Under the pieces are notes generated by a model, which was given only the letters and a program-made list of their open reading frames with translations, was not told where the DNA came from and made no database searches. Positions 473 to 19,131 of a stretch of DNA of 19,131 nt are shown one piece after another (within the stretch, counting starts at the first letter, position 1; every line of letters starts with the position of its first letter). Both the position numbers and the translations under genes were made by a program. The stretch comes from Lentisphaeria bacterium (lineage in GTDB: Bacteria; Verrucomicrobiota; Lentisphaeria; Oligosphaerales; JBFJXC01), in the NCBI GenBank assembly GCA_041623325.1, contig JBFJXC010000031.1, positions 1 through 19,131 of the forward strand. Reading direction: 5' to 3'.

Positions 473-495
473 TCAACCCAAGGGAGGGCCTATCA

Positions 496-1505: not shown

Positions 1506-2786
1506 ATGGCGAATACCGTGCTAGTTGGCCTGCAGTGGGGCGACGAGGGAAAAGGCAAGATCATCGACGTGTTGACCAAACACGCCGACGTGGTGGTGCG
1601 TTTTCAGGGCGGCAACAATGCTGGACACACCGTGGAGATCGGGGACCAGAAGTTCGTCCTGCATTTGATACCCTCCGGCATTCTGCGTCAAGAGGCCCTC
1701 TGCGTGATCGGCAACGGCCTGGTCGTGGATGTGCTCGGCCTTCACGAGGAGATTCTGGGGCTGGAGGCCCGGGGAATCGAAGTGGACAGCCGCTTGCAAA
1801 TCAGCAGTCGCTGCCAGCTGGTGTTCAACTATCACCGCCGCCTTGACAGCCTCAAGGAGCTGAGCCTGGGTAGTGGCAAGATCGGCACGACTGGCCGAGG
1901 CATCGGACCGGCTTATGCCGACAAGGTCAACCGCGTCGGGTTGCGCGGCTCCGAGCTCTGCCATCCCAAGCGACTGGAGGAGCATTTCCGGGCTCAGTCG
2001 GAGGCTCACAACGCGATTTTCCGGCAGGCCGGGGTCGAACCGCTGGACATCGATGCCGAGTGGGAAAAGCTGCAGCCGGCCGTGGCCAAGCTGGCCCCCA
2101 TGGTGTGCGACACGGTCCTGACCGTGAACCGGGCTATCGAGGCCAATCAGAATGTGCTGTTCGAGGGTGCCCAGGGCACCTGGCTGGACGTGGACTACGG
2201 CACCTATCCTTTTGTGACCAGCAGCAATACCACCGTCGGGGGCGCCTGCACTGGCACCGGGGTGGCCCCCACCAGGATCGGACACGTGGTGGGCATTGCC
2301 AAGGCCTATACCACCCGCGTGGGCGAGGGGCCCTTTCCCACCGAGCTGTTCGATGAGGTCGGCAAGCACTTGGGCAAGGTCGGCCATGAATTCGGCGCCA
2401 CCACCGGACGGCCCCGCCGCTGTGGTTGGTTCGACGCCGTGGCCACCCGTTACGCCGCCATGCTCAACGGAGTGACCGACGGCCTGGTCGTGACCAAGCT
2501 GGACGTGCTCGATGGCCTGGAAACCATCAAGATCTGCACCGCCTACGAGTTGGACGGCCAGCGCATCACCGACATGCCCTCCGACAACGAGGACATCGCC
2601 CGGGTCGTGCCGGTTTACGAAGAGCATCCGGGCTGGATGCAATCCACCGAGAACGTCAACAGCTGGGATGACCTGCCCGAACTGGCCCGCAAGTACCTGT
2701 GTCGGATCGAGGAACTGCTGAAGGCCAAGCTGGAGATCGTGTCGGTGGGTCCGCGCCGCGCTCAGACGTTCAAGGTTTCGCGGTAG
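1506..2786 (+). CDS. purA: Adenylosuccinate synthetase
   Basis: ATG at 1506 with GAGG 8 nt upstream. The product carries the GTP-binding N-terminus LQWGDEGKGKIID, GGNNAGHTV, GTTGRGIGPAY and ATTGRPRRCGW. At 426 aa the length is typical. Confidence 0.95.
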   Translation: MANTVLVGLQWGDEGKGKIIDVLTKHADVVVRFQGGNNAGHTVEIGDQKFVLHLIPSGILRQEALCVIGNGLVVDVLGLHEEILGLEARGIEVDSRLQISSRCQLVFNYHRRLDSLKELSLGSGKIGTTGRGIGPAYADKVNRVGLRGSELCHPKRLEEHFRAQSEAHNAIFRQAGVEPLDIDAEWEKLQPAVAKLAPMVCDTVLTVNRAIEANQNVLFEGAQGTWLDVDYGTYPFVTSSNTTVGGACTGTGVAPTRIGHVVGIAKAYTTRVGEGPFPTELFDEVGKHLGKVGHEFGATTGRPRRCGWFDAVATRYAAMLNGVTDGLVVTKLDVLDGLETIKICTAYELDGQRITDMPSDNEDIARVVPVYEEHPGWMQSTENVNSWDDLPELARKYLCRIEELLKAKLEIVSVGPRRAQTFKVSR

Positions 2787-2810
2787 TCCGGAAGCCTCGA
2801 GGGAGCAGGT

Positions 2811-3533
2811 ATGGCTGACCAGGACAGTGCAGCTCCGCGCCATGTGGCCATGATCATGGACGGCAATGGCCGCTGGGCCCGGGAGCGCGGCTTGTCGCGC
2901 CTTGAAGGGCATCGGGCCGGGGCCGAGACGGTGCGCCGCATGGTCGAGGCCTGCGCCCAGTTGAAAATCCCCTATCTGACGCTCTACGCCTTCAGCACCG
3001 AAAACTGGCAGCGCCCCAAGGCCGAGGTGGCCGCTCTGATGCAGCTGCTGCAGAGCTTTCTGACCAAGCGGCTTCCAGACCTGCGGAAACACAAGATCCG
3101 CCTGAACGCCATCGGCGAGCTCGAGCGCTTGCCTCCCCGGGTGCTTGAGGCCCTGACCAAGGCCATGGAAGCCACCCGCGACGGCACCGGCGGCACCCTG
3201 ACCCTGGCCTTGAGCTACGGATCGCGCCTGGAAATTGTCGCCGCCGCCCGCGCCCTGGCCCGCAAGGTACAGGCCGGGGAACTGGCGCCCGAGGCGATTA
3301 CCGAAGAGCTGCTCAGCGCGCATTTGTACACGGCCGATTTGCCCGACCCTGATTTGATTATCCGCACTAGCGGCGAGCTGCGGTTGAGCAACTTTCTGTT
3401 GTGGCAGGCCTCGTATGCCGAATTGTGGGTCACCCCCACCTGCTGGCCTGATTTCAGCGCGGACGAGTTCCGGGGGGCCATCGCGGAGTTTAACCGGCGG
3501 CAACGCCGTTTTGGAGGAGTCGATCATGCTTAG
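2811..3533 (+). CDS. uppS: Isoprenyl transferase / undecaprenyl-diphosphate synthase
   Basis: HVAMIMDGNGRWA and AFSTENWQRP are the cis-prenyltransferase signatures. The 240-aa length fits. Confidence 0.9.
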   Translation: MADQDSAAPRHVAMIMDGNGRWARERGLSRLEGHRAGAETVRRMVEACAQLKIPYLTLYAFSTENWQRPKAEVAALMQLLQSFLTKRLPDLRKHKIRLNAIGELERLPPRVLEALTKAMEATRDGTGGTLTLALSYGSRLEIVAAARALARKVQAGELAPEAITEELLSAHLYTADLPDPDLIIRTSGELRLSNFLLWQASYAELWVTPTCWPDFSADEFRGAIAEFNRRQRRFGGVDHA

Positions 3534-4425
3534 AAAACGAATGGCCAGCGCCGCGGTTCTGGGAACCATGCTGGCGGCCGCCTTCTTCATTCCCGGCCAG
3601 GTCGGTGCCGGGATCTTCATGCTGCTGTCCGCCGCCATGCTGCTGGTGGGCATTCAGGAATTCTTCCGGTTGACCAAGCCGGTCAGCGGCGGCGGCTATC
3701 CGGTTCTGACCAGCGTCTTCGGGCTGCTGATTCTGCTGTCCATGGGCACCCGGGCCTTCTTCGGCATGCCCGCGGCCGTCACCGGCTGGCACACCGCCGC
3801 TCCCGCCCTGGTCTGCTTCATCCTCTGTGTCTTCATTCACATCTTCAACCATCCCGACCGACTCCGGGAGGGCCTGGACCGGCTCTTCACCTCCCTGGCC
3901 TGCATCATCTGGGTCTGCTGGAGCCTCAGCTTCATCCCCGCCCTCTATTTCAGTTCTCCGCTCGACCAGATGGCCGGGCGGCTGCTGGTGGTGTATCTGA
4001 TTATTGTCACCAAGTCCGGCGATGTGGGCGCCTACACGGTCGGTTCGCTGACCGCCAAGCGGCCCCAGGGCAACCACAAAATGGCTCCGGCCCTCAGCCC
4101 CAAGAAAAGCTGGGAAGGTTTCGCGGGGGGCATGGCAACCTGCGTGCTGACCGCCTTGGTCCTTAACGGACTTTTCGGCCGGCATTTGACTCTGGAAGGA
4201 GTGCGGGTGGTCGGTTTCTGGGGGTCCGTTCTGGTGGGCGTGATGGCCGCGGTGCTGGGCTTTATCGGCGATGTGGCCGAATCGACTCTGAAACGGGCGG
4301 CCAAGGCCAAGGATTCCGGCTGGATTCCCGGTTTGGGGGGGGTTCTGGACGTGGTCGACAGCCTGGTCTTCGTGGCCCCGCTGTTCTACGTCTGGGTTCG
4401 CTTGGTCGCCTCCCTGCCACACTGA
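3526..4425 (+). CDS. cdsA: Phosphatidate cytidylyltransferase (CDP-diglyceride synthase)
   Basis: ATG at 3526 overlaps the uppS stop by 8 nt and has GGAGGA upstream. The product is polytopic and carries the C-terminal CdsA signature KRAAKAKDSGWIPGLGGVLDVVDS. The uppS-cdsA order is conserved in many bacteria. Confidence 0.85.
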   Translation: MLRKRMASAAVLGTMLAAAFFIPGQVGAGIFMLLSAAMLLVGIQEFFRLTKPVSGGGYPVLTSVFGLLILLSMGTRAFFGMPAAVTGWHTAAPALVCFILCVFIHIFNHPDRLREGLDRLFTSLACIIWVCWSLSFIPALYFSSPLDQMAGRLLVVYLIIVTKSGDVGAYTVGSLTAKRPQGNHKMAPALSPKKSWEGFAGGMATCVLTALVLNGLFGRHLTLEGVRVVGFWGSVLVGVMAAVLGFIGDVAESTLKRAAKAKDSGWIPGLGGVLDVVDSLVFVAPLFYVWVRLVASLPH

Positions 4426-4529: not shown

Positions 4530-5393
4530 CTACTCGCTTCCCATCAGGTACATGTTTTTGACTTCCTGTTCGGTGAGGGCGCGCTTCCAGTAGGCGATCT
4601 CATCGATCCAGCCATTGAAGGTGTTGTTGCCTACGGCCGGCTTGCCGGAACGAATGCGCCCGGTGAAGGCGAAATCCGTGGTCGGCGAGTAGGGCTTTTC
4701 GCCGACTTTTACGCCGTCCACGTAGAGTCTGGCCATGCCGCCGGTCTCGAAGGTCATCACCGCCTGGTGCCACTTGCCGTCGATTAATTTCCTGGTGTCG
4801 GAGAGCGTGCCTGTCCCCGTGTGGAAATAGGCTTGGACAGCGCCGGTCGAAGTCAGATTAAGGTGAATTTCGTCCTGGCTGCCGTAGCCGTCTCCGTCGT
4901 CGTCGGCACTGCCGTAGAAAAGCATCGCCTTGGCGTCCGATTTGACGCGCAGAACTTTAAAGGAGACCATGGCGGTGCCGTTGTCGTTTTTGTATTGGTG
5001 GCTGCCATCCTTCCCCAAGGTCATGAGACTGCTGGAGGTGCCGTTGAAGTATAGGCCGGCCTTGCTGGGCCACCGTCCTTTGTACCAGGCAGTGCCCGTC
5101 CCTTTGGCGCCATGGTGCCTCTCGGGATCATAGTTCTCGATATCGACCCCAACGGCCATGTTGGTCACCCGGCCAGTCTCGCGCGAGTCTTCGAAGGTCC
5201 AGTAGCCCACGAGCAGCTCATCGATTCGCATCTGGCTACTGTATCCCAGCCAGCGGCCGTACTTGGCCCGCTGCCGGGCCGTCGAGAGCGCCGGCAGCAG
5301 CATGGAGGCCAAAATGGAGATGATGCTGATGACCACCAACAGCTCGATGAGGGTGAACGGGGCAGCGGTCGGGCGAGTTCGTTTGAGTGACAT
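4530..5393 (-). CDS. Prepilin-type N-terminal cleavage/methylation-domain protein with C-terminal LamG (concanavalin A-like) domain, paralogue 1
   Basis: ATG (CAT at 5391-5393) is preceded by GGAGGA. The N-terminus MSLKRTRPTAAPFTLIELLVVISIISILASMLLPAL is a type IV pilin-like helix. The C-terminal region has the LamG pattern KWHQAVMTFETGG...RLYVDGV. Confidence 0.8.
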   Translation of the reverse strand: MSLKRTRPTAAPFTLIELLVVISIISILASMLLPALSTARQRAKYGRWLGYSSQMRIDELLVGYWTFEDSRETGRVTNMAVGVDIENYDPERHHGAKGTGTAWYKGRWPSKAGLYFNGTSSSLMTLGKDGSHQYKNDNGTAMVSFKVLRVKSDAKAMLFYGSADDDGDGYGSQDEIHLNLTSTGAVQAYFHTGTGTLSDTRKLIDGKWHQAVMTFETGGMARLYVDGVKVGEKPYSPTTDFAFTGRIRSGKPAVGNNTFNGWIDEIAYWKRALTEQEVKNMYLMGSE

Positions 5394-5571
5394 GCATAGT
5401 CCTCCAGGTTGGATGTGTGAAAGACCCACCGAGTGTGAGGGTACCCTATGGTGGAGGGCTAGAAACTTAAAATCGTCCTAAGATTGGCAACCACCTCTGA
5501 GCGCCCGCCACTAAAGGCTGAGCCGGTTCAAGAGTGGCCCTCGCGCGCAGGTCCTGTGCATAATGCAGTGG

Positions 5572-5836: not shown

Positions 5837-6709
5837 CTACTCGCTTCCCATCAGGTACATGTTTTTGACTTCCTGCTCGGACAGGGCGCGATTCCAGTAG
5901 GCGGCCTCGTCGATCCAGCCCTTGAAGCGGCGGTCGTTGTTGCCGGCCCTCCCGAGATAAATGCCACCGGTGAAAGCGAAATCGCCGGCCTTCTTGACGT
6001 AGTCCTTTTCGGCCACTTTGACGCCGTCGACATAGAGTCTGGCCTTGCCGCCGGTCTCGTAGGTCATGACGGCCTGGTGCCACTTGCCATCGACCAGGTT
6101 CCGGCTGTCGGAGAGCCTGCCTGAGCTCCCGTCCCCGAGGTGGAAATAGGCTTGGGCCGCACCGTTGTCCTGGAGATGCAGGTGCATTTCGCGTTCCGCG
6201 CTGCCCAATCCGTCTCCGACATCCTTACAGCCGTAGAAGAGCATGTAACGGTCAGAGGGCTTGTTTAAGGCTTTGAAGGAGACCATGGCCGTGCCGTTGT
6301 CGCTCTTGTACTGGTGGCGGCCCTTGGTGGCCAACGACACATTGCTGTTGCTGTAGCCGGGGAAATAGACGGCGGCCTTGCTGGGCCATCGCCCCTTGTA
6401 CCAGGCCGCGCCGGCGCCTTTGCTGCCATGGTGCCGTTCGGGATCGTAGTTTTCCACATCCACACCAGCGGCCATGTTGGTTACTTGGTCAGTTTCGCGC
6501 GCGTCTTCGAAGTGCCAGTAGCCCACGAGCAGCTCATCGATTCGCATCTGGCTACTGTATCCAAGCCAGCGGCCGTACTTGGCCCTTTGCCGAGCCGTCG
6601 CCAGCGCCGGAAGTAGCATGGAGGCCAAAATCGAGATGATGCTGATGACCACCAGCAGCTCGATGAGGGTGAACGGGGCAACGGTCCGGCGAGATCGCGT
6701 GATTGACAT
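5837..6709 (-). CDS. Prepilin-type N-terminal helix plus LamG-domain protein, paralogue 2
   Basis: ATG (CAT at 6707-6709) with the RBS GGAGGAT. The product begins MSITRSRRTVAPFTLIELLVVISIISILASMLLPAL and carries the LamG motif KWHQAVMTYETGGKARLYVDGV. The first 60 aa and the last 15 aa are near-identical to paralogue 1. Confidence 0.8.
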   Translation of the reverse strand: MSITRSRRTVAPFTLIELLVVISIISILASMLLPALATARQRAKYGRWLGYSSQMRIDELLVGYWHFEDARETDQVTNMAAGVDVENYDPERHHGSKGAGAAWYKGRWPSKAAVYFPGYSNSNVSLATKGRHQYKSDNGTAMVSFKALNKPSDRYMLFYGCKDVGDGLGSAEREMHLHLQDNGAAQAYFHLGDGSSGRLSDSRNLVDGKWHQAVMTYETGGKARLYVDGVKVAEKDYVKKAGDFAFTGGIYLGRAGNNDRRFKGWIDEAAYWNRALSEQEVKNMYLMGSE

Positions 6710-11310: not shown

Positions 11311-12210
11311 TCACGATTCACCATCCGCCAGCCCATGGGCGCGCCTGGCGGATTCGACGGTGTTGTACAGGAGCATGGTGATGGTCATGGGGCCGACGCC
11401 GCCGGGCACGGGGGTGATTATGCTGGCTTTCTGCTTGACGGAATCGAAGTCCACGTCTCCCACCAGGCGGTAGCCGTTCTTGCGGCTGGCGTCCTCGACC
11501 CGGTTGACGCCCACGTCGATGACCACGGCCCCCTCCTTGACCATGTCGGCGGTCACGGTGCCCGGCCGGCCGGCGGCGGCGATGACGATGTCGGCCTGAC
11601 GTGTGAACTGGCCAATATCCGGAGTGCGGGTGTGGCAGACCGTCACCGTGGCATTGCCCAGTTCGCTTTTCTGCATCAGCAGGTTGGCCAGCGGCTTGCC
11701 GACGATATTGCTGCGGCCCACGACTACGGCGTGGGCGCCGGCGACTTTGGCCCCGCTGCGTTTGAGCATCTGCAAGACCCCGTGGGGGGTGCAGGGCAGG
11801 AAGGCATCCTGTCCGGTGACCATGCGGCCGACGTTCATGGGGTGGAAACCGTCCACGTCCTTATCGGGGTCGATGGCCAGCAGGACGGCATCCTCATCGA
11901 TCTGGGGGGGTAGGGGCAGCTGTACGAGAATGCCATTGATTTTGGGGTCGCGGTTCATCTGGTCGATGAGGGCCAGGAGCTGCTCCTGGGTGGTGTCGGC
12001 GCTCAGGCGGTTGTCGTCGGAATAGATGCCGATCTCGTCGCAGGCGCGCTCTTTGGCGGTGACGTAGGACTTGGAGGCAGGGTCGTCCCCGACCAAGATC
12101 ACCCCGAGTCCGGGGGTGATCCCTTTAGCCTTCAAACCGGCCACGGCCGTTTTGAGTTCGGCCCGGATATCGGCCGCGATCTGCTTGCCGTCGATAATGC
12201 TGGCTGACAT
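11311..12210 (-). CDS. folD: Bifunctional methylenetetrahydrofolate dehydrogenase / methenyl-THF cyclohydrolase
   Basis: Start chosen at MSASIIDGKQIA (CAT at 12208-12210) with the RBS AAGGAAA. Motifs: PGLGVILVGDDPASKSYV, GILVQLPLP, VVGRSNIVGKP and PVPGGVGPMT. Confidence 0.9.
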   Translation of the reverse strand: MSASIIDGKQIAADIRAELKTAVAGLKAKGITPGLGVILVGDDPASKSYVTAKERACDEIGIYSDDNRLSADTTQEQLLALIDQMNRDPKINGILVQLPLPPQIDEDAVLLAIDPDKDVDGFHPMNVGRMVTGQDAFLPCTPHGVLQMLKRSGAKVAGAHAVVVGRSNIVGKPLANLLMQKSELGNATVTVCHTRTPDIGQFTRQADIVIAAAGRPGTVTADMVKEGAVVIDVGVNRVEDASRKNGYRLVGDVDFDSVKQKASIITPVPGGVGPMTITMLLYNTVESARRAHGLADGES

Positions 12211-12300
12211 GGTTCGGATTTCCTTTGGTTTCGTCAAGTTTAGAAAGGAGGTCAGGCCTCCACTGGCCTTGTTCCGGCGGCGGCGCTGTGTTGGGAACCC

Positions 12301-14067
12301 TTAAAACAAACCGGTGACCTTGCCGGTGTCCAGGTCCACGTCGATCCGTCGGAAAGCGGGATCCGAACCGGTGCCCGGCAGCAAGTTGATGCCGCCGGCC
12401 ACCGGCACGACCAAGTCGGCCCCGTAATAGACCAGCACCTCGTCGATTGGCAAGGTCCAGCCGGTCGGTCGGCCCTTGAGGGCGGGGTCGTGCGAGAGGC
12501 TCAGTTGCGTCTTGGCCATGCAAACGCCCATGTGGGCGGTTTTGGGATCTTGTTCGAGTTCGGCCAGGCGTTGTCCGGCCCGGTCGGAATAGCTGATTCC
12601 GTCGGCCCCGTAGATCTCGACGGCGATGGCCTCCAGACGCTGGCGCAGAGGAGCTTGCGGATCGTACAGGGGTTTGAATTGGCTGGGCTCTTCGCAAGCC
12701 TCGGCCACGGCTTCGGCCAGCTCCAACGCCCCGTCGCCGCCCTGGGCCCAGTGGTTGGACACGGCCACTCGGGCCCCCGCGGCGCTGGCCAGGCGGCGTA
12801 CCAGGGCGATCTCCCCTTCAGTGTCGGTGTGAAAGCGGTTGAGGCAGACCAACGGGCGGATGCCGCTTTTGGCAACGATATCGATATGGGCCAGGAGGTT
12901 CTGGAAGCCCTTTTCCAGCAACTCCAGGTGCTCCTGGGTGTAGGCGCGGTCCAGTGGCAGCCCCGGCTTCACGATGGGGCCGCCGCCATGCATTTTCAGC
13001 GAGCGGATGGTGGCCACGATCACCACGCAGTCCGGGTGTAGTCCCGAGTGTCGGCACTTGAGGTTCCAGAATTTCTCGTAGCCCATGTCCGCCCCGAAGC
13101 CGCTCTCGGTCACGTGATAATCCGCCAGGCGGGTGCCCAGTTTGTCGGCAATGACCGAACTCTGCCCCAGGGCGATGTTGGCAAAGGGGCCGGCGTGCAC
13201 GAAGACCGGCTGGCCCTCCAGCGTCTGGATGAGGGTGGGGTTTAGAGACTCCACCAGCCAGGCCGTCATGGCGCCATCGACCTCCAGGTCCGCCGTGGTG
13301 ACTGGCCGGCCTGATTTGCTGTAGGCCACCGCGATGCGGCCGATGCGGCGGCGCAGGTCCGGCAGGTCGTTGGCCATGGCCAGGATCGTCATCAGCTCGC
13401 TGGAGACCGAAATCTGGAAGCCTGAAGGCATCTCCAATCCGTCCATCTTGCCGCCCCGGCCGATGGTGATGTGGCGCAAGGCCTGGGCGCAGAAGTCGAT
13501 GGCCCATTTCATCTGGACACGCGCGGGGTCGATGTCTAGGCGCTTGAGGCTGCGGGCGGCCAAAGCGTCGTCGTCGTAGTTGTGTTCGTGCTGCATGCGT
13601 GCGGTCAAGGCGACCATGGCCAGATTGTGGGCATTGGTGATGGCGTCGATATCGCCGGTCAGACGAATGGAAAAGGGGGCCAGGGGAATGCACTGGGCCA
13701 GTCCGCCGCCGGCGGCGGAGCCCTTGATGTTGAAGGTGGGCCCGCAGCTGGGCTGGCGAATGGCCCCGGTCACGGACTTGCCCAGCTTGGCCAGAGCTTG
13801 AATCAGGCCGATGGTGACGGTGGTCTTGCCTTCTCCGAGGGGGGTGGAGGTGATGGCGGTCACATCGATGTAGCGTCCTTGGGGGCGCTGCCCGAGGCGC
13901 TGCCAGACCTTGCGGTGGTCCACCCGGCCCAGAGAGCGTCCCATGGGGATCAGCTCCTCGTCCCGCAGGCCCAGCTCGGCCCCGAGTTGGCCGAAGGGCT
14001 TCATCCAGGCTTCGGCGGCCGCGGCGATTTGCCAGTCCTTGAGTTGGGTCGGGTCCAGTTGCTTCAT
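12301..14067 (-). CDS. fhs: Formate--tetrahydrofolate ligase
   Basis: Start chosen at MKQLDP (CAT at 14065-14067). The product carries the FTHFS signatures TPLGEGKTT, PSCGPTFNIKGSAAGGG and FHTDTEGE. It is 588 aa. Confidence 0.9.
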   Translation of the reverse strand: MKQLDPTQLKDWQIAAAAEAWMKPFGQLGAELGLRDEELIPMGRSLGRVDHRKVWQRLGQRPQGRYIDVTAITSTPLGEGKTTVTIGLIQALAKLGKSVTGAIRQPSCGPTFNIKGSAAGGGLAQCIPLAPFSIRLTGDIDAITNAHNLAMVALTARMQHEHNYDDDALAARSLKRLDIDPARVQMKWAIDFCAQALRHITIGRGGKMDGLEMPSGFQISVSSELMTILAMANDLPDLRRRIGRIAVAYSKSGRPVTTADLEVDGAMTAWLVESLNPTLIQTLEGQPVFVHAGPFANIALGQSSVIADKLGTRLADYHVTESGFGADMGYEKFWNLKCRHSGLHPDCVVIVATIRSLKMHGGGPIVKPGLPLDRAYTQEHLELLEKGFQNLLAHIDIVAKSGIRPLVCLNRFHTDTEGEIALVRRLASAAGARVAVSNHWAQGGDGALELAEAVAEACEEPSQFKPLYDPQAPLRQRLEAIAVEIYGADGISYSDRAGQRLAELEQDPKTAHMGVCMAKTQLSLSHDPALKGRPTGWTLPIDEVLVYYGADLVVPVAGGINLLPGTGSDPAFRRIDVDLDTGKVTGLF

Positions 14068-14329
14068 GGATGGGCCAGGCGCTCGCTGCGAAACTCCAAA
14101 TACCGGCCATCGTCGATGGCGCGGGCGGGAATGCCCAAACATACATCAAGTCGGATCAGACTCCAAGCCCAGGCGTCCGGATCAGGCCCGATCCGCCGAG
14201 GCCGCAAGGGACCCCAAAACCCTGCACGGGCAAGCGGCCGCGAGCATGCTATATTAGGCGCCTGATTTTCAGAAAACGAAGCCGGGATTCTCCCGCGGAT
14301 TTGGATCGAATCGGAAGGATGCAGGATAG

Positions 14330-15211
14330 ATGGACCAGAAACGTTTTGAATTAAATGCCCAGTTGGCCCAGATGCTCAAGGGCGGGGTGATCATGGATGT
14401 GACCAACGTGGAGCAGGCCAAGATCGCGGAGGAGGCCGGCGCGGTGGCGGTGATGGCGCTGGAGCGGGTGCCGGCGGACATCCGCAAGGACGGCGGCGTG
14501 GCCCGCATGTCCGATCCCGAGATGGTCGCCGAGATCAAAGCCTCGGTCTCCATCCCGGTCATGGCCAAGGCCCGCATCGGGCACTTCGTCGAGGCCCAGG
14601 TTCTGGAAGCGCTGAAGATCGACTACATCGACGAGAGCGAGGTGCTGACTCCGGCCGACGAGGAGTGCCACATCGACAAGAGCCAGTTCTCCATCCCCTT
14701 CGTCTGCGGGGCCCGCAATCTGGGCGAGGCCTGCCGCCGCATCGCCGAGGGCGCGGCCATGATCCGCACCAAGGGCGAGGCCGGCACCGGCGACGTGGTC
14801 GAGGCCGTCCGTCACATGCGCACCATGAACCGGGAGACCCGGATTCTGGTGAACATGCCGGTGGAGGAGGTGGTCCCCTTCTGCAAGGATAACGGCATCC
14901 CCTTCGAGCTGGCCATGAAGGTTCGCGAGCTGGGCCGCCTGCCCGTGGTCAACTTCGCCGCCGGCGGCATTGCCACCCCCGCCGACGCCGCTTTGATGAT
15001 GCAGCTGGGCTGCGACGGCGTCTTCGTGGGTTCCGGCATCTTCAAATCCGGCGATCCGGCCAAGCGCGCCCGCGCCATCGTCACCGCCGTGGCCTACTAC
15101 AACGACCCGGTCAAGATCATGGAAGTCTCCAAGGGGCTCGGCGAGCCCATGGTGGGCATCAACTGCTCCAGCCTGACCGGCGACGACAAACTGGCCGGCC
15201 GCGGCTGGTAG
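14330..15211 (+). CDS. pdxS: Pyridoxal 5'-phosphate synthase lyase subunit
   Basis: [46 protein letters not shown] and [29 protein letters not shown] together are highly diagnostic of PdxS/SNZ. Confidence 0.95.
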
Positions 15212-15229
15212 CGAGCGGACGGGGGCGCC

Positions 15230-15886
15230 ATGGCCGCATCATTGGGAATTCTGGATTTGCAGGGGGGGGTGCATGAGCACCTCGACCACCTGCACCGCCT
15301 TGGCGTCCCGACCGTCCGGGTCAAAAAGGCCGGCGATCTGGCCGGCCTGTGCGGCCTGATCATCCCCGGCGGGGAGAGCACCTGCCTGGCCCGTCTGCTC
15401 AAAATCTTCGATATGGAGCGCCCCATTCTCGAGGCTTTCCGCAACGGCATGAAGATTTGGGGCACTTGCGCGGGGGCCATTCTGGTGGCCACCGAAAATA
15501 TCGGGCAGGCGCCCCATTTGGGTCTGGTCGAGGTGGCCGTGCAGCGCAACGCCTTCGGCAGCCAGCTGGACAGCTTCCACTGCATGGCCACGATCCCGGA
15601 AGTCGCGCGGGAGCCCATTCCGCTGACCTTCATCCGCGCTCCTAAGATTGTCCGAGCCGGCCATGGCGTGAACGTGCTGCTGCGCATTGACGACTACATT
15701 GCCGCGGCCGAGAACGAGGAGGTTCTGGTGACCGTCTTCCACCCGGAGCTGACCCCCTCCCTGGCTTTCCACCGCTATTTCGCCCGCAAATGCGGCCTGC
15801 AGCCGGCAAAAGCAACCGAGACCAGCGCCTACGAACACGACTGGGACCGGGTTAGCTGGATGCGCCACGCCCGCATCGCCGGGTAA
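15230..15886 (+). CDS. pdxT: Pyridoxal 5'-phosphate synthase glutaminase subunit
   Basis: LGILDLQGGVHEH, LIIPGGESTC and GTCAGAILV (the catalytic Cys) are present. It begins 18 nt after pdxS. It has a C-terminal extension of about 30 aa relative to typical PdxT. Confidence 0.85.
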   Translation: MAASLGILDLQGGVHEHLDHLHRLGVPTVRVKKAGDLAGLCGLIIPGGESTCLARLLKIFDMERPILEAFRNGMKIWGTCAGAILVATENIGQAPHLGLVEVAVQRNAFGSQLDSFHCMATIPEVAREPIPLTFIRAPKIVRAGHGVNVLLRIDDYIAAAENEEVLVTVFHPELTPSLAFHRYFARKCGLQPAKATETSAYEHDWDRVSWMRHARIAG

Positions 15887-15908: not shown

Positions 15909-17570
15909 TTGAACATCGCCCACTACCTGCCTGACCTGGCCGCGGAGATGCCGTTCAAGCGGGCGGTCGTCTGCCCGGAAGGGCGCGACGGCAAGGGGCG
16001 GGTCGCCTACAGCCATCTGACCTTTTCCCAGCTGAACGCCCGATGCGACCACTATGCCTGGGCCCTCAAGGGCATCGGGGTCGAGCCGGGCATGCGGACC
16101 TTGCTGATGGTCCGCCCAGGCTTGGACTTCATGGCTCTGACCTTCGCCCTTTTCAAAATCGGGGCCATCCCGGTTCTCATCGATCCCGGCATGGGTTGGC
16201 GGGGCTTCCTGCGCTGCGTGGCCCAAGTCAAGCCGGAGGCCTTCCTCGGCATCCCGCTGGCCCACATCCTGCGCTGCGTCCGGCCCAAGCCCTTCAAAAG
16301 CATCCGCATCGCCGTCACCCTGGGCCGGCGCTGGTTCTGGGGTGGGTACGCCTTGGACAGGCTGAAGAGCGCCTCCGACCCCTTCCCGGTCCGGGCGGTC
16401 ACTCCCGAGGACACCGCGGCGATTCTCTTCACCACCGGCAGCACCGGCCCCGCCAAGGGCGTGGTCTACACCCACCGCATCTTCAACACCCAAGTCGAGA
16501 TCCTGCGCCGCGAATACCATATCGGCCCCGACGATGTCGACCTGCCTTGTTTCCCGCTCTTCGCCCTCTTCAGCGTGGCCCTGGGGGCCACGGCGGTCAT
16601 TCCGGACATGGACCCCACCCGGCCCGCCCAGGTCGATCCCCGGCGGATCATCGAGGCCATCCACGACCAGGGCGTGACCTACTCTTTTGGCTCGCCCGCC
16701 CTGTGGCGCACCGTCAGCGCCTACTGCGTGGGGCATGGCGTGACCTTCCCCAGCGTGAAACTGGTGCTGATGGCCGGTGCCCCGGTGCCGGCCTATCTGC
16801 ACGAGCGCATGCTGACCCGCATCCTTCCCGTCGGCGCCGAGGTCCACACGCCCTACGGGGCCACCGAGTCCCTGCCGGTCTCCACCTTTGCCGGCTCTCT
16901 GGTTCTGGCCGAGACCCTGGAGAAGACCCGGAAAGGCAAGGGCATCTGCGTGGGGCGTCCTCTGCAGGAGATCACCGCCCGAATCATCCGCATCACCGAC
17001 GACCCCATTGAACGCTGGGAGGACAGCCTGGTGCTGCCGCAGGGCGAGGTCGGGGAGATCGCGGTGAAGGGCCCGGTAGTCACGCCGGAATACGCCGACC
17101 TTCCGGACAAGACCCGGCTGGCCAAGGTCCACGAGAACGGGCAGATCTGGCACCGCATCGGGGACCTGGGCTATCTCGACAAGCAGGGTCGGCTGTGGTT
17201 CTGCGGCCGCAAGAGCCACCGGGTGATCACCGAGCAAGGCCTGATGCTGACAGTCTGCTGCGAGGCGATCTTCAACGAGCATCCGCGCGTGCACCGTTCC
17301 GCCCTGGTGGGAATCGGGCGCCACCGGTGCCGCCAGACGCCGGTGATCGTGATCGAGCCGGAAAAGGGCCAGTTCCCAAGGTCCGCGGCCGACAAGCAGC
17401 GGTTTGCCTCCGAGCTTCTGGAACTGGCTGCGAAGGCCGAGCACACCCGGAACATCCGCACGGTGCTCTTCCACCGTTCCTTCCCCGTCGACATCCGCCA
17501 CAACGCCAAGATCCGCCGCGAGGATCTGGCCGTCTGGGCAAGCGGGCAAGTTGTGAATGGTGAATGGTGA
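15909..17570 (+). CDS. AMP-dependent synthetase/ligase (fatty-acyl-AMP / acyl-CoA ligase family)
   Basis: It starts at TTG 15909 with GGAG 7 nt upstream, 22 nt after pdxT. The next in-frame ATG is at 15948. The product carries the adenylate-forming motif TTGSTGPAKGVVYTH and later YGATES and GDLGYLDKQGRLWFCGRKS. It is 553 aa. Confidence 0.8.
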   Translation: MNIAHYLPDLAAEMPFKRAVVCPEGRDGKGRVAYSHLTFSQLNARCDHYAWALKGIGVEPGMRTLLMVRPGLDFMALTFALFKIGAIPVLIDPGMGWRGFLRCVAQVKPEAFLGIPLAHILRCVRPKPFKSIRIAVTLGRRWFWGGYALDRLKSASDPFPVRAVTPEDTAAILFTTGSTGPAKGVVYTHRIFNTQVEILRREYHIGPDDVDLPCFPLFALFSVALGATAVIPDMDPTRPAQVDPRRIIEAIHDQGVTYSFGSPALWRTVSAYCVGHGVTFPSVKLVLMAGAPVPAYLHERMLTRILPVGAEVHTPYGATESLPVSTFAGSLVLAETLEKTRKGKGICVGRPLQEITARIIRITDDPIERWEDSLVLPQGEVGEIAVKGPVVTPEYADLPDKTRLAKVHENGQIWHRIGDLGYLDKQGRLWFCGRKSHRVITEQGLMLTVCCEAIFNEHPRVHRSALVGIGRHRCRQTPVIVIEPEKGQFPRSAADKQRFASELLELAAKAEHTRNIRTVLFHRSFPVDIRHNAKIRREDLAVWASGQVVNGEW

Positions 17571-17672
17571 ATGGTGGGGGGATCCAGCTTCCGCCTCTTT
17601 AGTGTGGCGCACTATTTAAGAAACTGGAGACCGTCGTCTCCTCATCAGGAATCGCAATCACGGCAACAGCCT

Positions 17673-17701
17673 TTTAGAAAATCCATTCTTGATGGTATAA
17701 T
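17673..17701 (+). promoter_or_regulatory. Extended -10 promoter candidate (TTTAGA, 17 nt spacer, TGgTATAAT)
   Basis: -35-like TTTAGA at 17673-17678 and TG-n-TATAAT at 17693-17701, about 60 nt upstream of the ATG at 17762. Confidence 0.4.
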
Positions 17702-17761
17702 GGCCGGGAACCATTCACCAACCGACCCTCGGGGATTATGGCAAAAAGCGGGAGGAACTGC

Positions 17762-19131
17762 ATGCACCGATACAAGACCCACGTGAACTACCGGCCGAGG
17801 ACGCGGGCCCGGAAAGCCGCCGAGGAGATCCTGGCCGAATTGCTGCTGGCATGTTTCGGCAAACGTCCCGACCCGATCCTGGTGGCCATCGGCGGCCCCG
17901 GTGGCACCGGCAAGAGCAGCTTCTGCCAGCGCCTGGCCGCCCGCCTTCCCGAGGCGGCCATCGTCACGCTGGACGACTACAAGACCGCCCGCGAGATCCG
18001 CGCGGGCCAGAATCTTTATGGTGCCCATCCCAACGCCAACAAGATGGATCTGATCGAGGAGCATCTGAAACTGGTCAAGGCCGGCATGCCCTTCGAAAAA
18101 CCCGTCTACGATGCCGTCAGCGGAGATGCCAAGGCCTCGGAGATCTACACCCCCGTTCGCTTCAATCTGCTCGACGGCGAGATCTCCACCTACCGGCAGT
18201 TCCGCGACCTGGTCGACTTCGCCGTCTTCATCGACTCCGACTGGAAGACTCAGCTTGAGACCCGCATCACCCGCGACATCCAGCAGCGGGGCTACTCTCG
18301 CGAGAAGGCCATCGCCACCTTCCTGCAGAGCAACTTGCGGGAGTTCGCCACCTACGGGGCCGAAAGCAAAAACTGGGCAGATGTGCATCTGTACTGCCAC
18401 GACGACTATCGTTTGGAGATCGAGTCGGTCGACCAGCAGCTATTCACGCGCTTCGATTCGCTGCTTGAAAAAGATCTTGCCCCTTTGGACCTGTCCGGCC
18501 TGATCGTGCCGGTGCTCACCCCTTTCGGCGAAAGCGACGCGGTTGACCAGGAGGCCTTTATCCGGCATCTGGAGTTTCTGGCCGAGCATGGCGTCAGGCG
18601 CATTCTGGTCAACGGCACCACCGGGGAGTTCTTCTCGTTGTCGCTGGCTGAGCGCAAACTGATGCTGACGCTGGCCCGGCGCTATTTTCCCGGCGCGGTG
18701 CTGTTCCAGGCCGGCAGCGACAGCCTGGTACAGACACAGTTGGAGGCCCGCTGGGGACAGGACTACGGCGCGGACGCCATCGTGGTTTTGCCCCCTTATT
18801 ACTTCGCCGAGGCGCCCGAACAGGGGCTGGTCGACTACTTCAACGCCCTGGCCTCCCAGATCGAGGTGCCCTTCATCCTCTACAATTTCCCATCGCACAC
18901 CCAGAACCCCCTCACTGCCGAGATCCTGAAAAAGGTCCATCATTTCGGGCTCAAAGACTCCTCCGCGGACCTGTCCCTCATTCATGCCACCCCCCATTAC
19001 TACTTGGGATGGGATCCACGCGTGATCGAGGCGCAGCAGAAGGGAGCCTACGGTTTCATCAGCAGTCATGCCAACATCTGCCCGGACCTGTTCGTCGGGC
19101 TGGAAAAGGCCCTGCGCCGCGGCGACGACGA
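17762..19131 (+). CDS. Fusion protein: N-terminal uridine-kinase/phosphoribulokinase-family P-loop kinase domain plus C-terminal DHDPS/NAL-family class I aldolase domain (3' end beyond the window)
   Basis: Translated by hand from ATG 17762, which has GGAGGA 6 nt upstream. The frame is open through the last base, which is why it is missing from the ORF track. The N-domain has the P-loop ILVAIGGPGGTGKSS, TLDDYK and DFAVFIDSDWKTQLETRITRD, all uridine kinase-like. From about aa 235 it reads LSGLIVPVLTPF...NGTTGEF...LPPYYF...ILYNFPSHT...GLKDSS, with the DHDPS-family GTTGE, both tyrosines and the Schiff-base lysine. Confidence 0.75.
   Translation, partial: MHRYKTHVNYRPRTRARKAAEEILAELLLACFGKRPDPILVAIGGPGGTGKSSFCQRLAARLPEAAIVTLDDYKTAREIRAGQNLYGAHPNANKMDLIEEHLKLVKAGMPFEKPVYDAVSGDAKASEIYTPVRFNLLDGEISTYRQFRDLVDFAVFIDSDWKTQLETRITRDIQQRGYSREKAIATFLQSNLREFATYGAESKNWADVHLYCHDDYRLEIESVDQQLFTRFDSLLEKDLAPLDLSGLIVPVLTPFGESDAVDQEAFIRHLEFLAEHGVRRILVNGTTGEFFSLSLAERKLMLTLARRYFPGAVLFQAGSDSLVQTQLEARWGQDYGADAIVVLPPYYFAEAPEQGLVDYFNALASQIEVPFILYNFPSHTQNPLTAEILKKVHHFGLKDSSADLSLIHATPHYYLGWDPRVIEAQQKGAYGFISSHANICPDLFVGLEKALRRGDD

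What the first reader, a model, noticed from the sequence alone, without database searches (positions are those of the whole stretch)
17762..19131. In-frame fusion of a uridine-kinase/PRK-family P-loop kinase domain to a DHDPS/NAL-family aldolase domain
A single uninterrupted reading frame of at least 456 codons joins a complete P-loop nucleoside/sugar kinase-like domain (GGPGGTGKSS, TLDDYK, uridine kinase-like lid region) to a class I aldolase domain of the dihydrodipicolinate synthase / N-acetylneuraminate lyase family (GTTGE, PPYYF, ILYNFP, GLKDSS). The linker ...FDSLLEKDLAPLDLSGLIVPVLTPF contains no stop and no internal start or RBS. I do not recognise this domain pair as a known architecture. 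A kinase fused to a Schiff-base aldolase suggests a channelled 'phosphorylate then cleave/condense' step, for example on a sugar acid or a nucleoside-derived substrate. The gene sits next to an acyl-AMP ligase and the pdxST PLP-synthase genes and has its own extended -10 promoter candidate.
Basis: partly seen in the sequence, partly recalled or inferred. Interest (0 to 1): 0.7.

Follow-up and report, generated by a model that had tools for sequence, protein, structure and literature searches.

The report
Conserved PRK-like kinase–aldolase fusion enzyme
The reading frame is a real, widely conserved but uncharacterised bifunctional enzyme that joins a phosphoribulokinase-like sugar kinase to a pyruvate-dependent Schiff-base aldolase, probably two steps of one sugar-acid pathway in anaerobic polysaccharide-degrading bacteria.

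Summary
ORF 17762-19131 (+) has 456 codons and is cut by the window end. It carries PF00485 (PRK/uridine kinase, aa 41-208) and PF00701 (DHDPS, aa 244-455) in one frame. It is not an artefact: the 120 best database clusters (500-540 aa, 49-65% identity) all have this architecture with a gap-free junction. They come from Kiritimatiellota/Pontiella, Lentisphaerota, Planctomycetota, Fibrobacterota, KSB1, Sumerlaeota and Ignavibacteriota. The architecture is catalogued, for example as WP_322607926.1 'dihydrodipicolinate synthase family protein', but I found no study of it.

The kinase half is PRK-like, not uridine-kinase-like. The residues that hold the Ru5P phosphate in PRK are invariant here, and the nucleoside-binding residues of UCK2 are absent. 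The aldolase half keeps GTTGE, the catalytic Tyr and the Schiff-base Lys, but has His where DapA has its essential Arg138. Gene context is not conserved and there is no riboswitch.

The family is modular: the kinase domain has been lost repeatedly (one case leaves a clean in-frame deletion footprint), some ~400-aa forms have a degenerate aldolase half, and stand-alone kinases exist.

The best guess is phosphorylation of an anionic 2-keto-3-deoxy sugar acid followed by cleavage to pyruvate plus an aldehyde phosphate. The substrate remains untested. It is a new variant of known kinds and of moderate interest.

The parts
17573..17595 (+). Terminator-like hairpin after the upstream fatty-acid-CoA-ligase-family gene
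   Evidence: Consensus scan found 8 stem pairs followed by a T-rich tail. It suggests the fusion gene is not co-transcribed with the upstream gene. It is a pattern match only.
17673..17701 (+). Promoter-like site TTTAGA-17 nt-TATAAT with TG (extended -10)
   Evidence: It matches 10 of 12 consensus positions. One site was found against 0.1 expected in shuffles. It is not experimentally verified.
17750..17755 (+). Shine-Dalgarno-like GGGAGG, 6 nt before ATG 17762
   Evidence: Read directly from the sequence. Homologs start at the equivalent Met, MHKxKTHV.
17762..19131 (+). CDS of the bifunctional kinase-aldolase: 456 codons, with the 3' end cut by the window
   Evidence: It is 66% identical to the full-length 516-aa homolog P0002.
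17762..18475 (+). N-terminal PRK-like P-loop kinase domain (aa 1-238), including the conserved N-terminal strand MH.YKTHV
   Evidence: PF00485. NCBIfam PRK subfamily scores 108 bits against udk 71 bits. PDB PRK hits reach E about 1e-20. The AF2 model has pLDDT 91.3 and pTM 0.89.
17891..17920 (+). Walker A / P-loop GGPGGTGKSS (aa 44-53)
   Evidence: G44, G45, G47, G48 and K51 are invariant in 28 homologs.
17969..18001 (+). Acceptor-site segment LDDYKTAREIR (aa 70-80): catalytic Asp D71, plus R77 and R80
   Evidence: D71 aligns with TePRK D43 and UCK2 D62. R77 and R80 align with TePRK R50/R53, which are CrPRK R64/R67, the side chains holding the Ru5P phosphate. They are invariant or nearly invariant.
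18248..18289 (+). Lid segment TQLETRITRDIQQR (aa 163-176)
   Evidence: R171, D172 and R176 align with CrPRK R159, D160 and R164. R168, R171 and D172 are invariant.
18455..18526 (+). Domain junction (aa 232-255), ...SLLEKDLAPLDLSGLIVPVLTPF
   Evidence: There is no stop. It aligns gap-free in all homologs. It is modelled with pLDDT 83-97 in P0002.
18476..19131 (+). C-terminal DHDPS/NAL-family class I aldolase domain (aa 239-456 present; truncated by the window end)
   Evidence: PF00701 scores 118.9 bits. Foldseek gives TM 0.80-0.89, normalised to the target, against YagE, DapA, NanA and SsKDGA.
18614..18628 (+). GTTGE (aa 285-289), the 2-oxo-acid carboxylate-binding motif
   Evidence: G285, T286 and E289 are invariant. 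It aligns with DapA T44/T45 and SsKDGA T43/T44.
18881..18898 (+). YNFPSH (aa 374-379): catalytic Tyr374, and His379 at the position of DapA Arg138
   Evidence: Y374 is invariant and H379 is conserved in at least 90% of homologs.
18953..18955 (+). Codon of Lys398 (GLKDSS), the predicted Schiff-base lysine
   Evidence: It is invariant. It aligns with DapA K161 and SsKDGA K155.

Best explanation
The gene encodes a genuine bifunctional enzyme from a conserved but uncharacterised family.

Shown or strongly inferred from conserved residues: the N-terminal domain is an active P-loop kinase of the PRK/uridine-kinase fold. It has a Walker A motif, the catalytic Asp (D71) and a lid (R168/R171/D172/R176). 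Its acceptor pocket keeps the Arg-Arg-Tyr cluster (R77, R80, Y116) that binds the phosphate of ribulose-5-phosphate in phosphoribulokinase. The acceptor is therefore an anionic sugar derivative, not a nucleoside.

The C-terminal domain is an active class I aldolase that uses pyruvate or another 2-oxo acid. K398 forms the Schiff base, Y374 relays the proton and GTTGE holds the carboxylate. It is not DapA, because the residue that binds aspartate semialdehyde in DapA (Arg138) is His here.

Inferred, not shown: the two domains act consecutively on a 2-keto-3-deoxy sugar acid of the KDG/KDGal type. The kinase phosphorylates the terminal hydroxyl while the Arg-Arg-Tyr site holds the carboxylate. 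The aldolase then cleaves the phosphorylated acid to pyruvate plus an aldehyde phosphate such as glyceraldehyde-3-phosphate. This would be a non-orthologous, fused equivalent of the KdgK + Eda (or DgoK + DgoA) trunk of sugar-acid catabolism in anaerobic polysaccharide degraders of the PVC and FCB groups.

The confidence of 0.35 applies to this specific pathway. I put 'two catalytically active domains working in one pathway' at about 0.75.
For: The fusion is real and under selection. The 120 best clusters are all PF00485+PF00701 at 49-65% identity, the junction is gap-free with 54-59% mean column identity, and the composition is native.

Kinase half:
- The NCBIfam PRK subfamily is the best kinase hit, at 108 bits against 71 for udk.
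- The best PDB relatives are cyanobacterial PRKs.
- R77, R80 and Y116 align with CrPRK Arg64, Arg67 and Tyr103, which hold the sulfate that marks the Ru5P phosphate. They are conserved across fused and stand-alone members.
- UCK2's ribose- and base-binding residues (F83/D84, H117) are deleted or replaced by Gly.

Aldolase half:
- The catalytic triad motifs are invariant.
- The best NCBIfam model is archaeal KD(P)G aldolase.
- The best Foldseek hit is the 2-keto-3-deoxy-sugar-acid aldolase YagE.
- Pairwise E is 1e-30 to SsKDGA against 2e-24 to DapA. The K-D-[ST] motif, the G-x-D motif and a small residue at the A198 position are shared with SsKDGA.

Other support: the AF2 model is confident with a defined domain arrangement (pLDDT 91.6, pTM 0.71). 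The host taxa are largely anaerobic polysaccharide degraders (from taxon names, plus general knowledge of these phyla). In Pontiella a PL11 rhamnogalacturonan lyase lies directly downstream.
Against: - No substrate has been tested.
- Gene context gives no support. No neighbour is conserved across phyla. The 124 flanking ORFs hit 171 Pfam families, with at most 4 ORFs in any one family and no uronate or sugar-acid set among the most frequent families.
- The stand-alone kinases also lack an adjacent aldolase.
- The residues that bind the KDPG phosphate in S. solfataricus KD(P)G aldolase (R106, R237) are not conserved here.
- The two activities are separable. The kinase domain has been lost repeatedly and the aldolase half has degenerated in ~400-aa variants. 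That argues against obligatory channelling.
- One stand-alone-kinase locus carries a canonical Eda-type aldolase nearby, so the family need not replace Eda.
- Some hosts (Brocadiia, Omnitrophota, Competibacteraceae) are not typical uronate degraders.
Confidence: 0.35

Rival explanations
1. Both domains are active in one pathway, but not as 'phosphorylate then cleave'. One option is that the aldolase cleaves or condenses first and the kinase then acts on an acidic product or a later intermediate, following the logic of NanA then NanK, or of aldolase followed by glycerate kinase. Another option is that both serve an unrecognised biosynthetic route that condenses pyruvate with an aldehyde phosphate.
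For: Both active sites are conserved. Fusions commonly link steps that are not consecutive. The free-standing, housekeeping-like context fits a biosynthetic or central role better than a substrate-specific catabolic one. PF00485 includes class III glycerate kinase (PMC2063504). The domains can be separated in evolution.
Against: A neutral aldehyde or sugar product such as glyceraldehyde or ManNAc would not need the conserved PRK-type anion site. NCBIfam, PDB sequence and fold searches return PRK, UCK and PanK, not a glycerate kinase. No candidate biosynthetic pathway is suggested by any neighbour or riboswitch.
Confidence: 0.25
2. The kinase is the essential activity: a PRK-like ketose-phosphate or sugar-phosphate kinase making a bisphosphate. 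The DHDPS-like half then serves mainly as an oligomerisation or regulatory scaffold, or performs an unrelated reaction.
For: All PRK residues for binding a sugar-phosphate acceptor are kept. The ~400-aa variants in Lentisphaerota and Omnitrophota keep an intact kinase but have lost GTTGE and the Schiff-base Lys. Stand-alone kinases of the same family exist, in 15 clusters scoring 183-294 bits.
Against: In the full fusions every aldolase catalytic residue is invariant, which a mere scaffold would not require. Kinase-less aldolases have persisted after at least four independent deletions, so the aldolase has its own selected function. The protein fails the PRK cutoff (108 bits against 236) and lacks PRK's C-terminal domain. 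No RuBisCO or related genes were seen in the annotated loci or among the most frequent neighbour families.
Confidence: 0.15
3. It is an ordinary lysine-pathway DapA, or an ordinary uridine/cytidine kinase, that happens to be fused to a second domain.
For: Public annotations call members 'dihydrodipicolinate synthase family protein', '4-hydroxy-tetrahydrodipicolinate synthase' or 'uridine kinase'. Many of the best PDB matches are DapA enzymes.
Against: The DapA equivalog model scores 101 bits against a cutoff of 206, and udk scores 71 against 220. DapA Arg138 is His here. UCK2 D84 falls in a deletion, and H117 and F114 are replaced. Identity to DapA is only 27%.
Confidence: 0.04
4. It is an assembly or frameshift artefact joining two adjacent genes.
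Against: The same architecture appears in more than 120 independent clusters and about 55 GTDB species loci from several phyla, including complete genomes (CP036201.1). The junction is conserved and gap-free. The two halves have identical composition.
Confidence: 0.01

Closest known systems
Archaeal bifunctional KD(P)G aldolase (S. solfataricus KDGA, PDB 1w37; NCBIfam NF040954), and E. coli YagE/YjhH 2-keto-3-deoxy sugar-acid aldolases (PDB 2v8z)
   Same: They share the DHDPS-family (beta/alpha)8 fold and the Schiff-base Lys in a K-D-[ST] motif. They also share the catalytic Tyr in Y-N-x-P, the GTTG motif, the G-x-D motif and a small residue at the A198 position. NF040954 is the best NCBIfam model and YagE the best Foldseek hit.
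   Different: Identity is only 28%. The score of 116 bits is far below the equivalog cutoff of 390. The KDPG phosphate-binding residues R106 and R237 are not conserved, and Y132 is Phe. A nearly invariant His (H379) occupies the A135 position. The known enzymes are never fused to a kinase.
4-hydroxy-tetrahydrodipicolinate synthase DapA (TIGR00674; for example E. coli DapA)
   Same: Fold, GTTGE, Tyr133, Lys161 and the C-terminal R-x-P-L motif.
   Different: Arg138, needed to bind aspartate semialdehyde, is His here. The score is below cutoff (101 against 206) and identity is 27%.
Cyanobacterial/plant-type phosphoribulokinase (PDB 6gve, 6hzk, 6kev; CrPRK 6h7g)
   Same: P-loop PRK/UK fold and the catalytic Asp after strand beta2. 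The Arg-Arg-Tyr cluster that binds the Ru5P phosphate (CrPRK R64/R67/Y103) and the lid residues R159/D160/R164 are all conserved.
   Different: Only the ~180-residue kinase core is shared, and the ~140-residue C-terminal part of PRK is absent. Lys replaces the His of DDYH. The score is 108 bits against a cutoff of 236. There is no CP12/thioredoxin cysteine pair. The hosts are heterotrophic anaerobes, and no RuBisCO was seen in the annotated neighbourhoods.
Uridine-cytidine kinase (human UCK2, T. thermophilus UK)
   Same: Same fold (Foldseek TM 0.68), Walker A, catalytic Asp, His-Pro motif and lid R..RD..ERG.
   Different: UCK2's ribose-binding F83/D84 fall in a 4-residue deletion. The base-reading H117 is an invariant Gly here and F114 is Ala. 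The R77/R80 positions are Thr and Gln in UCK2.
KdgK (PfkB family) + Eda (PF01081), or DgoK + DgoA: the classical kinase-then-aldolase pairs for 2-keto-3-deoxy sugar acids
   Same: The proposed chemistry: ATP-dependent phosphorylation followed by class I, pyruvate-releasing aldol cleavage.
   Different: There is no homology. KdgK is a ribokinase-fold enzyme and Eda belongs to a different class I aldolase family, and they are normally separate proteins. The functional equivalence is my inference and is untested.

Membership tests
DHDPS/NAL superfamily (Pfam PF00701) | Profile score above the Pfam gathering threshold | tested here: met
   118.9 bits against a cutoff of 22.1, covering aa 244-455.
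DHDPS/NAL superfamily (Pfam PF00701) | Schiff-base Lys, catalytic Tyr (Y-N-x-P) and G-x-T-G-E carboxylate-binding motif | tested here: met
   K398, Y374 and G285-T286-T287-G-E289 are invariant or nearly so across 28 and 70 homologs. They align with DapA K161/Y133/T44-T45 and SsKDGA K155/Y130/T43-T44.
DHDPS/NAL superfamily (Pfam PF00701) | (beta/alpha)8 barrel with a C-terminal helical domain | tested here: met
   AF2 model of the homolog P0002 has pLDDT 91.6. Foldseek TM (normalised to target) is 0.80-0.89 to YagE, DapA, NanA and KDGA.
DapA, 4-hydroxy-tetrahydrodipicolinate synthase (TIGR00674) | Equivalog score at or above the curated cutoff | tested here: not met
   101.4 bits against a cutoff of 206.15.
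DapA, 4-hydroxy-tetrahydrodipicolinate synthase (TIGR00674) | Arg138 (E. coli numbering), which binds the carboxylate of aspartate semialdehyde | tested here: not met
   It aligns with His379, which is conserved in at least 90% of the family.
Archaeal KD(P)G aldolase (NF040954) | Equivalog score at or above the curated cutoff | tested here: not met
   115.8 bits against a cutoff of 390, although it is the best-scoring aldolase model.
Archaeal KD(P)G aldolase (NF040954) | KDPG phosphate-binding residues R106, Y132, R237 and S241 (SsKDGA numbering, recalled from the literature; the sequence numbering was checked) | tested here: not met
   R106 aligns with a variable position (Asn in P0002, Glu in the window). 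Y132 aligns with Phe376. R237 aligns with a variable position.
PRK/uridine kinase family (Pfam PF00485) | Profile score above the gathering threshold, Walker A motif, and catalytic Asp after strand 2 | tested here: met
   64.3 bits against a cutoff of 22. GGPGGTGKS is present. D71 is invariant and aligns with TePRK D43 and UCK2 D62.
Phosphoribulokinase proper (EC 2.7.1.19; NF005655) | Family score at or above the curated cutoff | tested here: not met
   108 bits against a cutoff of 236.
Phosphoribulokinase proper (EC 2.7.1.19; NF005655) | Residues binding the Ru5P phosphate (CrPRK Arg64, Arg67, Tyr103) and lid residues Arg159/Asp160/Arg164 | tested here: met
   These align with R77, R80, Y116, R171, D172 and R176, all invariant or at least 90% conserved.
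Phosphoribulokinase proper (EC 2.7.1.19; NF005655) | Full-length ~330-aa architecture with the C-terminal sheet/dimerisation region | tested here: not met
   Only PRK residues ~3-186 align. The kinase domain ends at about aa 238 and is followed by the aldolase.
Uridine/cytidine kinase (TIGR00235, NF004018) | Equivalog score at or above the cutoff | tested here: not met
   71.2 bits against 220.3, and 69.4 against 180.
Uridine/cytidine kinase (TIGR00235, NF004018) | Nucleoside-binding residues (UCK2 D84 for the ribose hydroxyls; H117 and F114 for the base) | tested here: not met
   F83/D84 fall in a 4-residue gap. H117 aligns with the invariant G121 and F114 with Ala (the UCK2 sequence was supplied from memory, and its numbering is self-consistent).
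Class III glycerate kinase (PRK/UK-related; PMC2063504) | Specific similarity to the A. thaliana GLYK / S. cerevisiae YGR205W group | not tested
   No model for this group was available. It did not appear among NCBIfam or PDB sequence hits at E of 1e-3 or better, but no direct comparison was run.

The most novel reading that the evidence does not exclude
The fusion, together with its stand-alone kinase and aldolase relatives, defines an unrecognised metabolic module of PVC- and FCB-group anaerobes. It would comprise a new PRK-derived kinase activity on an anionic sugar (acid or phosphate), coupled to a new DHDPS-family aldolase specificity marked by His379. This would be either a third, non-orthologous form of the KDG-kinase/KDPG-aldolase trunk or a pathway for a metabolite not yet assigned to any enzyme.
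Probability: 0.3. Interest if true: 0.6.

Novelty: new variant of a known kind. Interest (0 to 1): 0.5.

Why it matters
Both domain families are textbook enzymes, yet this pairing has no characterised member. It occurs in at least ~55 species-level genomes and more than 120 protein clusters from environmentally important polysaccharide-degrading anaerobes (Kiritimatiellota, Lentisphaerota, Planctomycetota, Fibrobacterota).

A fusion is strong 'Rosetta-stone' evidence that a PRK-derived kinase and a DHDPS-type aldolase work in one pathway. That turns two generically annotated families ('uridine kinase' and 'dihydrodipicolinate synthase family protein') into a testable pair. It also flags systematic mis-annotation of these proteins as DapA or Udk in metagenome-based metabolic reconstructions.

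If the sugar-acid reading is right, it fills in how these organisms feed acidic-polysaccharide breakdown products into glycolysis. The repeated, cleanly resolved domain losses also make the family a good case study of fusion and fission in enzyme evolution.

Tried and rejected
- **Conserved gene neighbourhood.** All-vs-all clustering of ORFs from 84 loci found no partner conserved across phyla. Only Pontiella-lineage synteny appeared: gltB-gltD upstream, and PL11 lyase, a solute-binding protein and MMPL/DUF1302 downstream.
- **Functional theme among neighbours.** 124 flanking ORFs hit 171 Pfam families, none in more than 4 ORFs. I did not scan the second half of the neighbour set.
- **Context of stand-alone kinases.** Five look-ups gave heterogeneous contexts. 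The downstream ORF in L084 is not an aldolase.
- **Context of the ~400-aa variants.** Nothing informative.
- **Riboswitch or leader RNA.** No Rfam match even at E up to 5 in 17400-17900, and none at gathering score anywhere in the window.
- **AMP-binding gene as a conserved partner.** It recurs only in the Melioribacteraceae locus, in a different architecture, and does not cluster with the window's gene. In the window a terminator-like hairpin and a promoter-like site separate it from the fusion.
- **Literature.** Nine searches found no description of the fusion and no Kiritimatiellota reconstruction addressing KDG metabolism.
- **Fold searches.** They confirm the folds but do not discriminate. 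The aldolase is equally close to YagE, DapA, NanA and KDGA, and the kinase equally close to UCK2, PRK and PanK-I. AFDB was unavailable.
- **Defence-system role.** There are no PADLOC hits.
- **Ideas considered and set aside for lack of evidence.** A pantothenate-pathway reading (PanK-like kinase plus a 'ketopantoaldolase'), since no CoaA model hit appeared and identity to PanK structures is only 15-19%. Also DAHP/KDO8P-type condensations, a NanA/NanK-type order, and a glycerate kinase role.
Full report
**1. Observation**

The + strand from 17762 to the window end translates into 456 codons without a stop. Pfam places PF00485 (PRK/uridine kinase) at aa 41-208 with 64.3 bits against a cutoff of 22. 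It places PF00701 (DHDPS) at aa 244-455 with 118.9 bits against a cutoff of 22.1. The ORF is truncated by the window end. Full-length relatives are 500-540 aa.

ATG 17762 is the probable start. Homologs begin MHKxKTHV at that position and GGGAGG lies 6 nt upstream. An in-frame ATG also exists at 17738. A terminator-like hairpin at 17573-17595 follows the upstream gene. A strong -35/extended -10 match lies at 17673-17701, with 1 site found against 0.1 expected in shuffles. The gene therefore looks like its own transcription unit. GC3 is 0.83 for the kinase half and 0.82 for the aldolase half, within the 0.75-0.92 range of the neighbours. Nothing suggests a chimera.

**2. The fusion is real and widespread**

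A search of 5.8 billion protein clusters returned 120 best hits. All are 482-556 aa, all carry PF00485+PF00701, and all are 49-65% identical to the window protein. Alignments of 28 and 70 members have no gap at the junction (...DLSGLIVPVLTPF) and 54-59% mean column identity.

A scan of one genome per GTDB species found 158 loci encoding a relative, and I examined the best 80. Roughly 55 are full fusions. They come from Fibrobacterota (including Chitinispirillaceae and Chitinivibrionales), Kiritimatiellota (Pontiella), Lentisphaerota, Planctomycetota (including Brocadiia and Phycisphaerales), KSB1, Sumerlaeota, Melioribacteraceae and Competibacteraceae. The set includes a complete genome, CP036201.1.

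Public entries carry only generic names. Examples are WP_322607926.1 'dihydrodipicolinate synthase family protein' from Pontiella agarivorans, and QBG48328.1 'hypothetical protein'. JGI labels include 'dihydrodipicolinate synthase/N-acetylneuraminate lyase/uridine kinase'. The frameshift or assembly-artefact explanation is excluded. The architecture is catalogued, though nine literature searches found no description of it.

**3. The kinase half**

NCBIfam ranks a phosphoribulokinase subfamily model first among kinase models (108 bits), ahead of uridine kinase (71 and 69 bits). All are far below their cutoffs. The closest solved sequences are cyanobacterial PRKs, at E about 1e-20 for the single sequence and 1e-31 for the family profile. 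Uridine kinases score 1e-17 to 1e-15.

I mapped the alignment onto the published PRK active site. In Chlamydomonas PRK a sulfate marks the Ru5P phosphate position. It is held by Arg64, Arg67 and Tyr103, and Arg159/Asp160/Arg164 in the lid loop are catalytic or bind Ru5P (bioRxiv 10.1101/422709). T. elongatus Arg50 is equivalent to CrPRK Arg64 (PMC6800369). The window residues correspond as follows:

| Window residue | PRK equivalent |
|---|---|
| R77 | CrPRK Arg64 (TePRK Arg50) |
| R80 | CrPRK Arg67 |
| Y116 | CrPRK Tyr103 |
| R171 | CrPRK Arg159 |
| D172 | CrPRK Asp160 |
| R176 | CrPRK Arg164 |
| D71 | the Asp after strand 2 (TePRK D43) |

All are invariant or at least 90% conserved in the family, including its stand-alone members.

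The alignment with human UCK2 points the other way. The ribose-binding F83/D84 fall in a 4-residue deletion. The base-reading His117 aligns with an invariant Gly. R77 and R80 align with Thr and Gln. I supplied the UCK2 sequence from memory, and its numbering reproduces the published residues.

Fold comparison does not discriminate. UCK2, PRKs and type I pantothenate kinase all give TM about 0.65-0.75. PF00485 is known to span PRK, uridine kinase, pantothenate kinase and class III glycerate kinase (PMC2063504).

My conclusion is that this is an active P-loop kinase whose acceptor carries an anionic group. It is PRK-like in its pocket, but it is not PRK: the score is below cutoff, PRK's C-terminal ~140 residues are missing, and Lys replaces the His of DDYH. 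It is also not a nucleoside kinase.

**4. The aldolase half**

GTTGE, Tyr374 (YNFP) and Lys398 (GLKDSS) are invariant. They align with the catalytic residues of DapA and of S. solfataricus KD(P)G aldolase. An active Schiff-base enzyme using pyruvate or another 2-oxo acid is therefore strongly indicated.

It is not DapA. Arg138 is replaced by a nearly invariant His379, the equivalog score is 101 against a cutoff of 206, and identity is 27%.

The domain is roughly equidistant from DapA, KDGA, YagE, HOGA and NanA, with a slight lean towards sugar-acid aldolases. The best NCBIfam model is archaeal KD(P)G aldolase. The best Foldseek hit is YagE. Pairwise E is 1e-30 to SsKDGA against 2e-24 to DapA, and the K-D-[ST] and G-x-D motifs are shared. 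However, SsKDGA's KDPG phosphate-binding R106 and R237 are not conserved.

**5. Family architecture and evolution**

tblastn with each half separately shows three forms:
- full fusions;
- kinase-less aldolases of 262-291 aa, 50-57% identical to the window's aldolase half, with no kinase within ±10 kb (about 20 loci, for example Pontiella sulfatireligans F21);
- ~400-aa proteins from Lentisphaerota strain zth2, Omnitrophota and a Lentisphaeria MAG, which have an intact kinase but a shortened C-terminal part lacking GTTGE and the Lys.

In a neighbour-joining tree of the aldolase domain, the kinase-less forms sit in at least four or five separate places next to fusions (no support values were computed). 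In Pontiella the same syntenic slot after gltB-gltD holds either form.

One case shows the direction of change. L062 residues 2-12 (MSSQKMKTHVQ) match residues 1-11 of its sister fusion L009. Residues 13-274 match L009 residues 242-503 at 65% identity without gaps. This is a precise in-frame excision of the kinase domain.

A full-library phmmer search with the kinase half found 55 clusters at E of 1e-30 or better. They include genuine stand-alone kinases of 205-250 aa with all the family motifs. A profile built from these separates the family (183-294 bits) cleanly from ordinary uridine kinases (116 bits or less).

The two activities are therefore linked in most lineages but are evolutionarily separable. 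That argues against obligatory channelling.

**6. Structure**

AlphaFold2 on the closest full-length homolog (P0002, 66% identical) gives mean pLDDT 91.6 and pTM 0.71. The junction is well ordered, and the conserved N-terminal KTHV peptide forms a beta-strand. No solved structure covers both domains: the query-normalised TM is about 0.5 for all hits.

**7. Context**

The window's neighbours are housekeeping genes: encapsulin, purA, uppS, cdsA, def, lnt, folD, fhs, pdxS, pdxT and a fatty-acid-CoA-ligase-family gene.

Across 84 loci no neighbour is conserved beyond the Pontiella lineage. A bulk Pfam scan of 124 flanking ORFs shows no theme. The stand-alone kinases and the ~400-aa variants are equally uninformative. 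There is no riboswitch and no defence-system match. The only hints are a PL11 rhamnogalacturonan lyase directly downstream in several Pontiella loci and the polysaccharide-degrading lifestyle of most hosts, which I take from general knowledge.

**8. Interpretation**

Shown:
- It is a real, conserved, single-polypeptide pairing of two catalytically intact domains.
- The kinase pocket is built for an anionic acceptor.
- The aldolase uses a 2-oxo-acid Schiff base and is not DapA.

Inferred:
- The two domains act on one pathway (fusion logic).
- The simplest chemistry consistent with all features is phosphorylation of the distal hydroxyl of a 2-keto-3-deoxy sugar acid, followed by cleavage to pyruvate plus an aldehyde phosphate. 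In this model the carboxylate takes the place of the Ru5P phosphate in the kinase pocket. It would be analogous to KdgK/Eda without being homologous to them.

I give this specific reading about 0.35. I give 'both domains active in one pathway' about 0.75. Rivals, with evidence and refutation tests listed in the structured fields:
- a different order of reactions, or a biosynthetic role (0.25);
- a kinase-centred function with the aldolase as scaffold (0.15);
- plain DapA or Udk (0.04);
- artefact (0.01).

**9. Novelty and score**

The window copy is a new member of an existing database family, at most 66% identical to any other member. The family itself is an uncharacterised variant built from two well-known enzyme kinds. 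It is interesting as a Rosetta-stone lead and as an annotation trap, since members are labelled DapA or uridine kinase. It is not categorically new, and the substrate remains open. Interest is 0.5.

Noticed in passing
window 325-1293 (+): A family 1 encapsulin nanocompartment shell protein (NF041155, 266.6 bits against a cutoff of 100; Pfam Linocin_M18). The upstream region that might hold its cargo gene lies at or beyond the window start.
   Followed up: partly
window 4530-5429 (-) and 5837-6709 (-): Two paralogous proteins with a prepilin-type N-terminal methylation motif plus a LamG/concanavalin-like domain. From general knowledge I associate this type with PVC-group bacteria (Verrucomicrobiota, Lentisphaerota, Planctomycetota), which would hint at the window's taxonomic origin.
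   Followed up: partly
window 15909-17570 (+): The upstream 'acyl-AMP ligase' is a PRK09274-type fatty-acid-CoA-ligase family protein (699.5 bits against a cutoff of 478). It is closely related to OleC olefin beta-lactone synthetases (593 bits, below the cutoff of 900). No oleA, oleB or oleD is present in the window.
   Followed up: partly
window 17554-17577: The tandem repeat GTGAATG occurs three times and straddles the stop codon of the ligase-family gene (...VVNGEW*). A G-rich terminator-like hairpin follows immediately.
   Followed up: no
window 11311-15886: fhs-folD (formate-THF ligase and methylene-THF dehydrogenase/cyclohydrolase, minus strand) lie back to back with pdxS-pdxT (PLP synthase, plus strand). 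This cluster of cofactor and C1-metabolism genes is not conserved next to the fusion in other genomes.
   Followed up: partly
window 17738-17740: An alternative in-frame ATG lies 8 codons upstream of ATG 17762. Homolog N-termini and the GGGAGG at 17750-17755 favour 17762.
   Followed up: yes
L062 9965-10789, compared with L009 9992-11506: A stand-alone aldolase retains the fusion's first ~11 residues (MSSQKMKTHVQ) joined directly to the aldolase domain. This is a clean in-frame deletion of the ~230-residue kinase domain.
   Followed up: yes
L056 9935-11113; L057 3717-4928; L061 5262-6476; L078 9995-11194: These ~400-aa relatives have an intact PRK-like kinase, but their C-terminal half has lost GTTGE and the Schiff-base lysine. 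It still ends in the family's ...GxP..xRPPF motif. It looks like a pseudo-aldolase domain, possibly kept for oligomerisation.
   Followed up: partly
L029 and L065 (same Victivallales MAG, SRP332253_co1_127): One MAG carries two copies: a full fusion, and a 447-aa copy in which only about 140 residues of the kinase domain align. Paralogs with partly deleted kinase domains can therefore coexist with the fusion.
   Followed up: no
L088 8001-15214: A stand-alone kinase of this family lies convergent to a pyrimidine cluster (pyrK-like, pyrC, pyrB, pyrR/upp) that also contains an Eda-type (PF01081) aldolase and an Rrf2 regulator. It is a single occurrence and its significance is unknown.
   Followed up: no
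window 1521-3653 (-) and other long antisense ORFs: Many long ORFs lie antisense to real genes, for example a 710-aa ORF opposite purA/uppS with no Pfam hit. These are compositional artefacts of the 63.5% GC sequence, not genes.
   Followed up: yes
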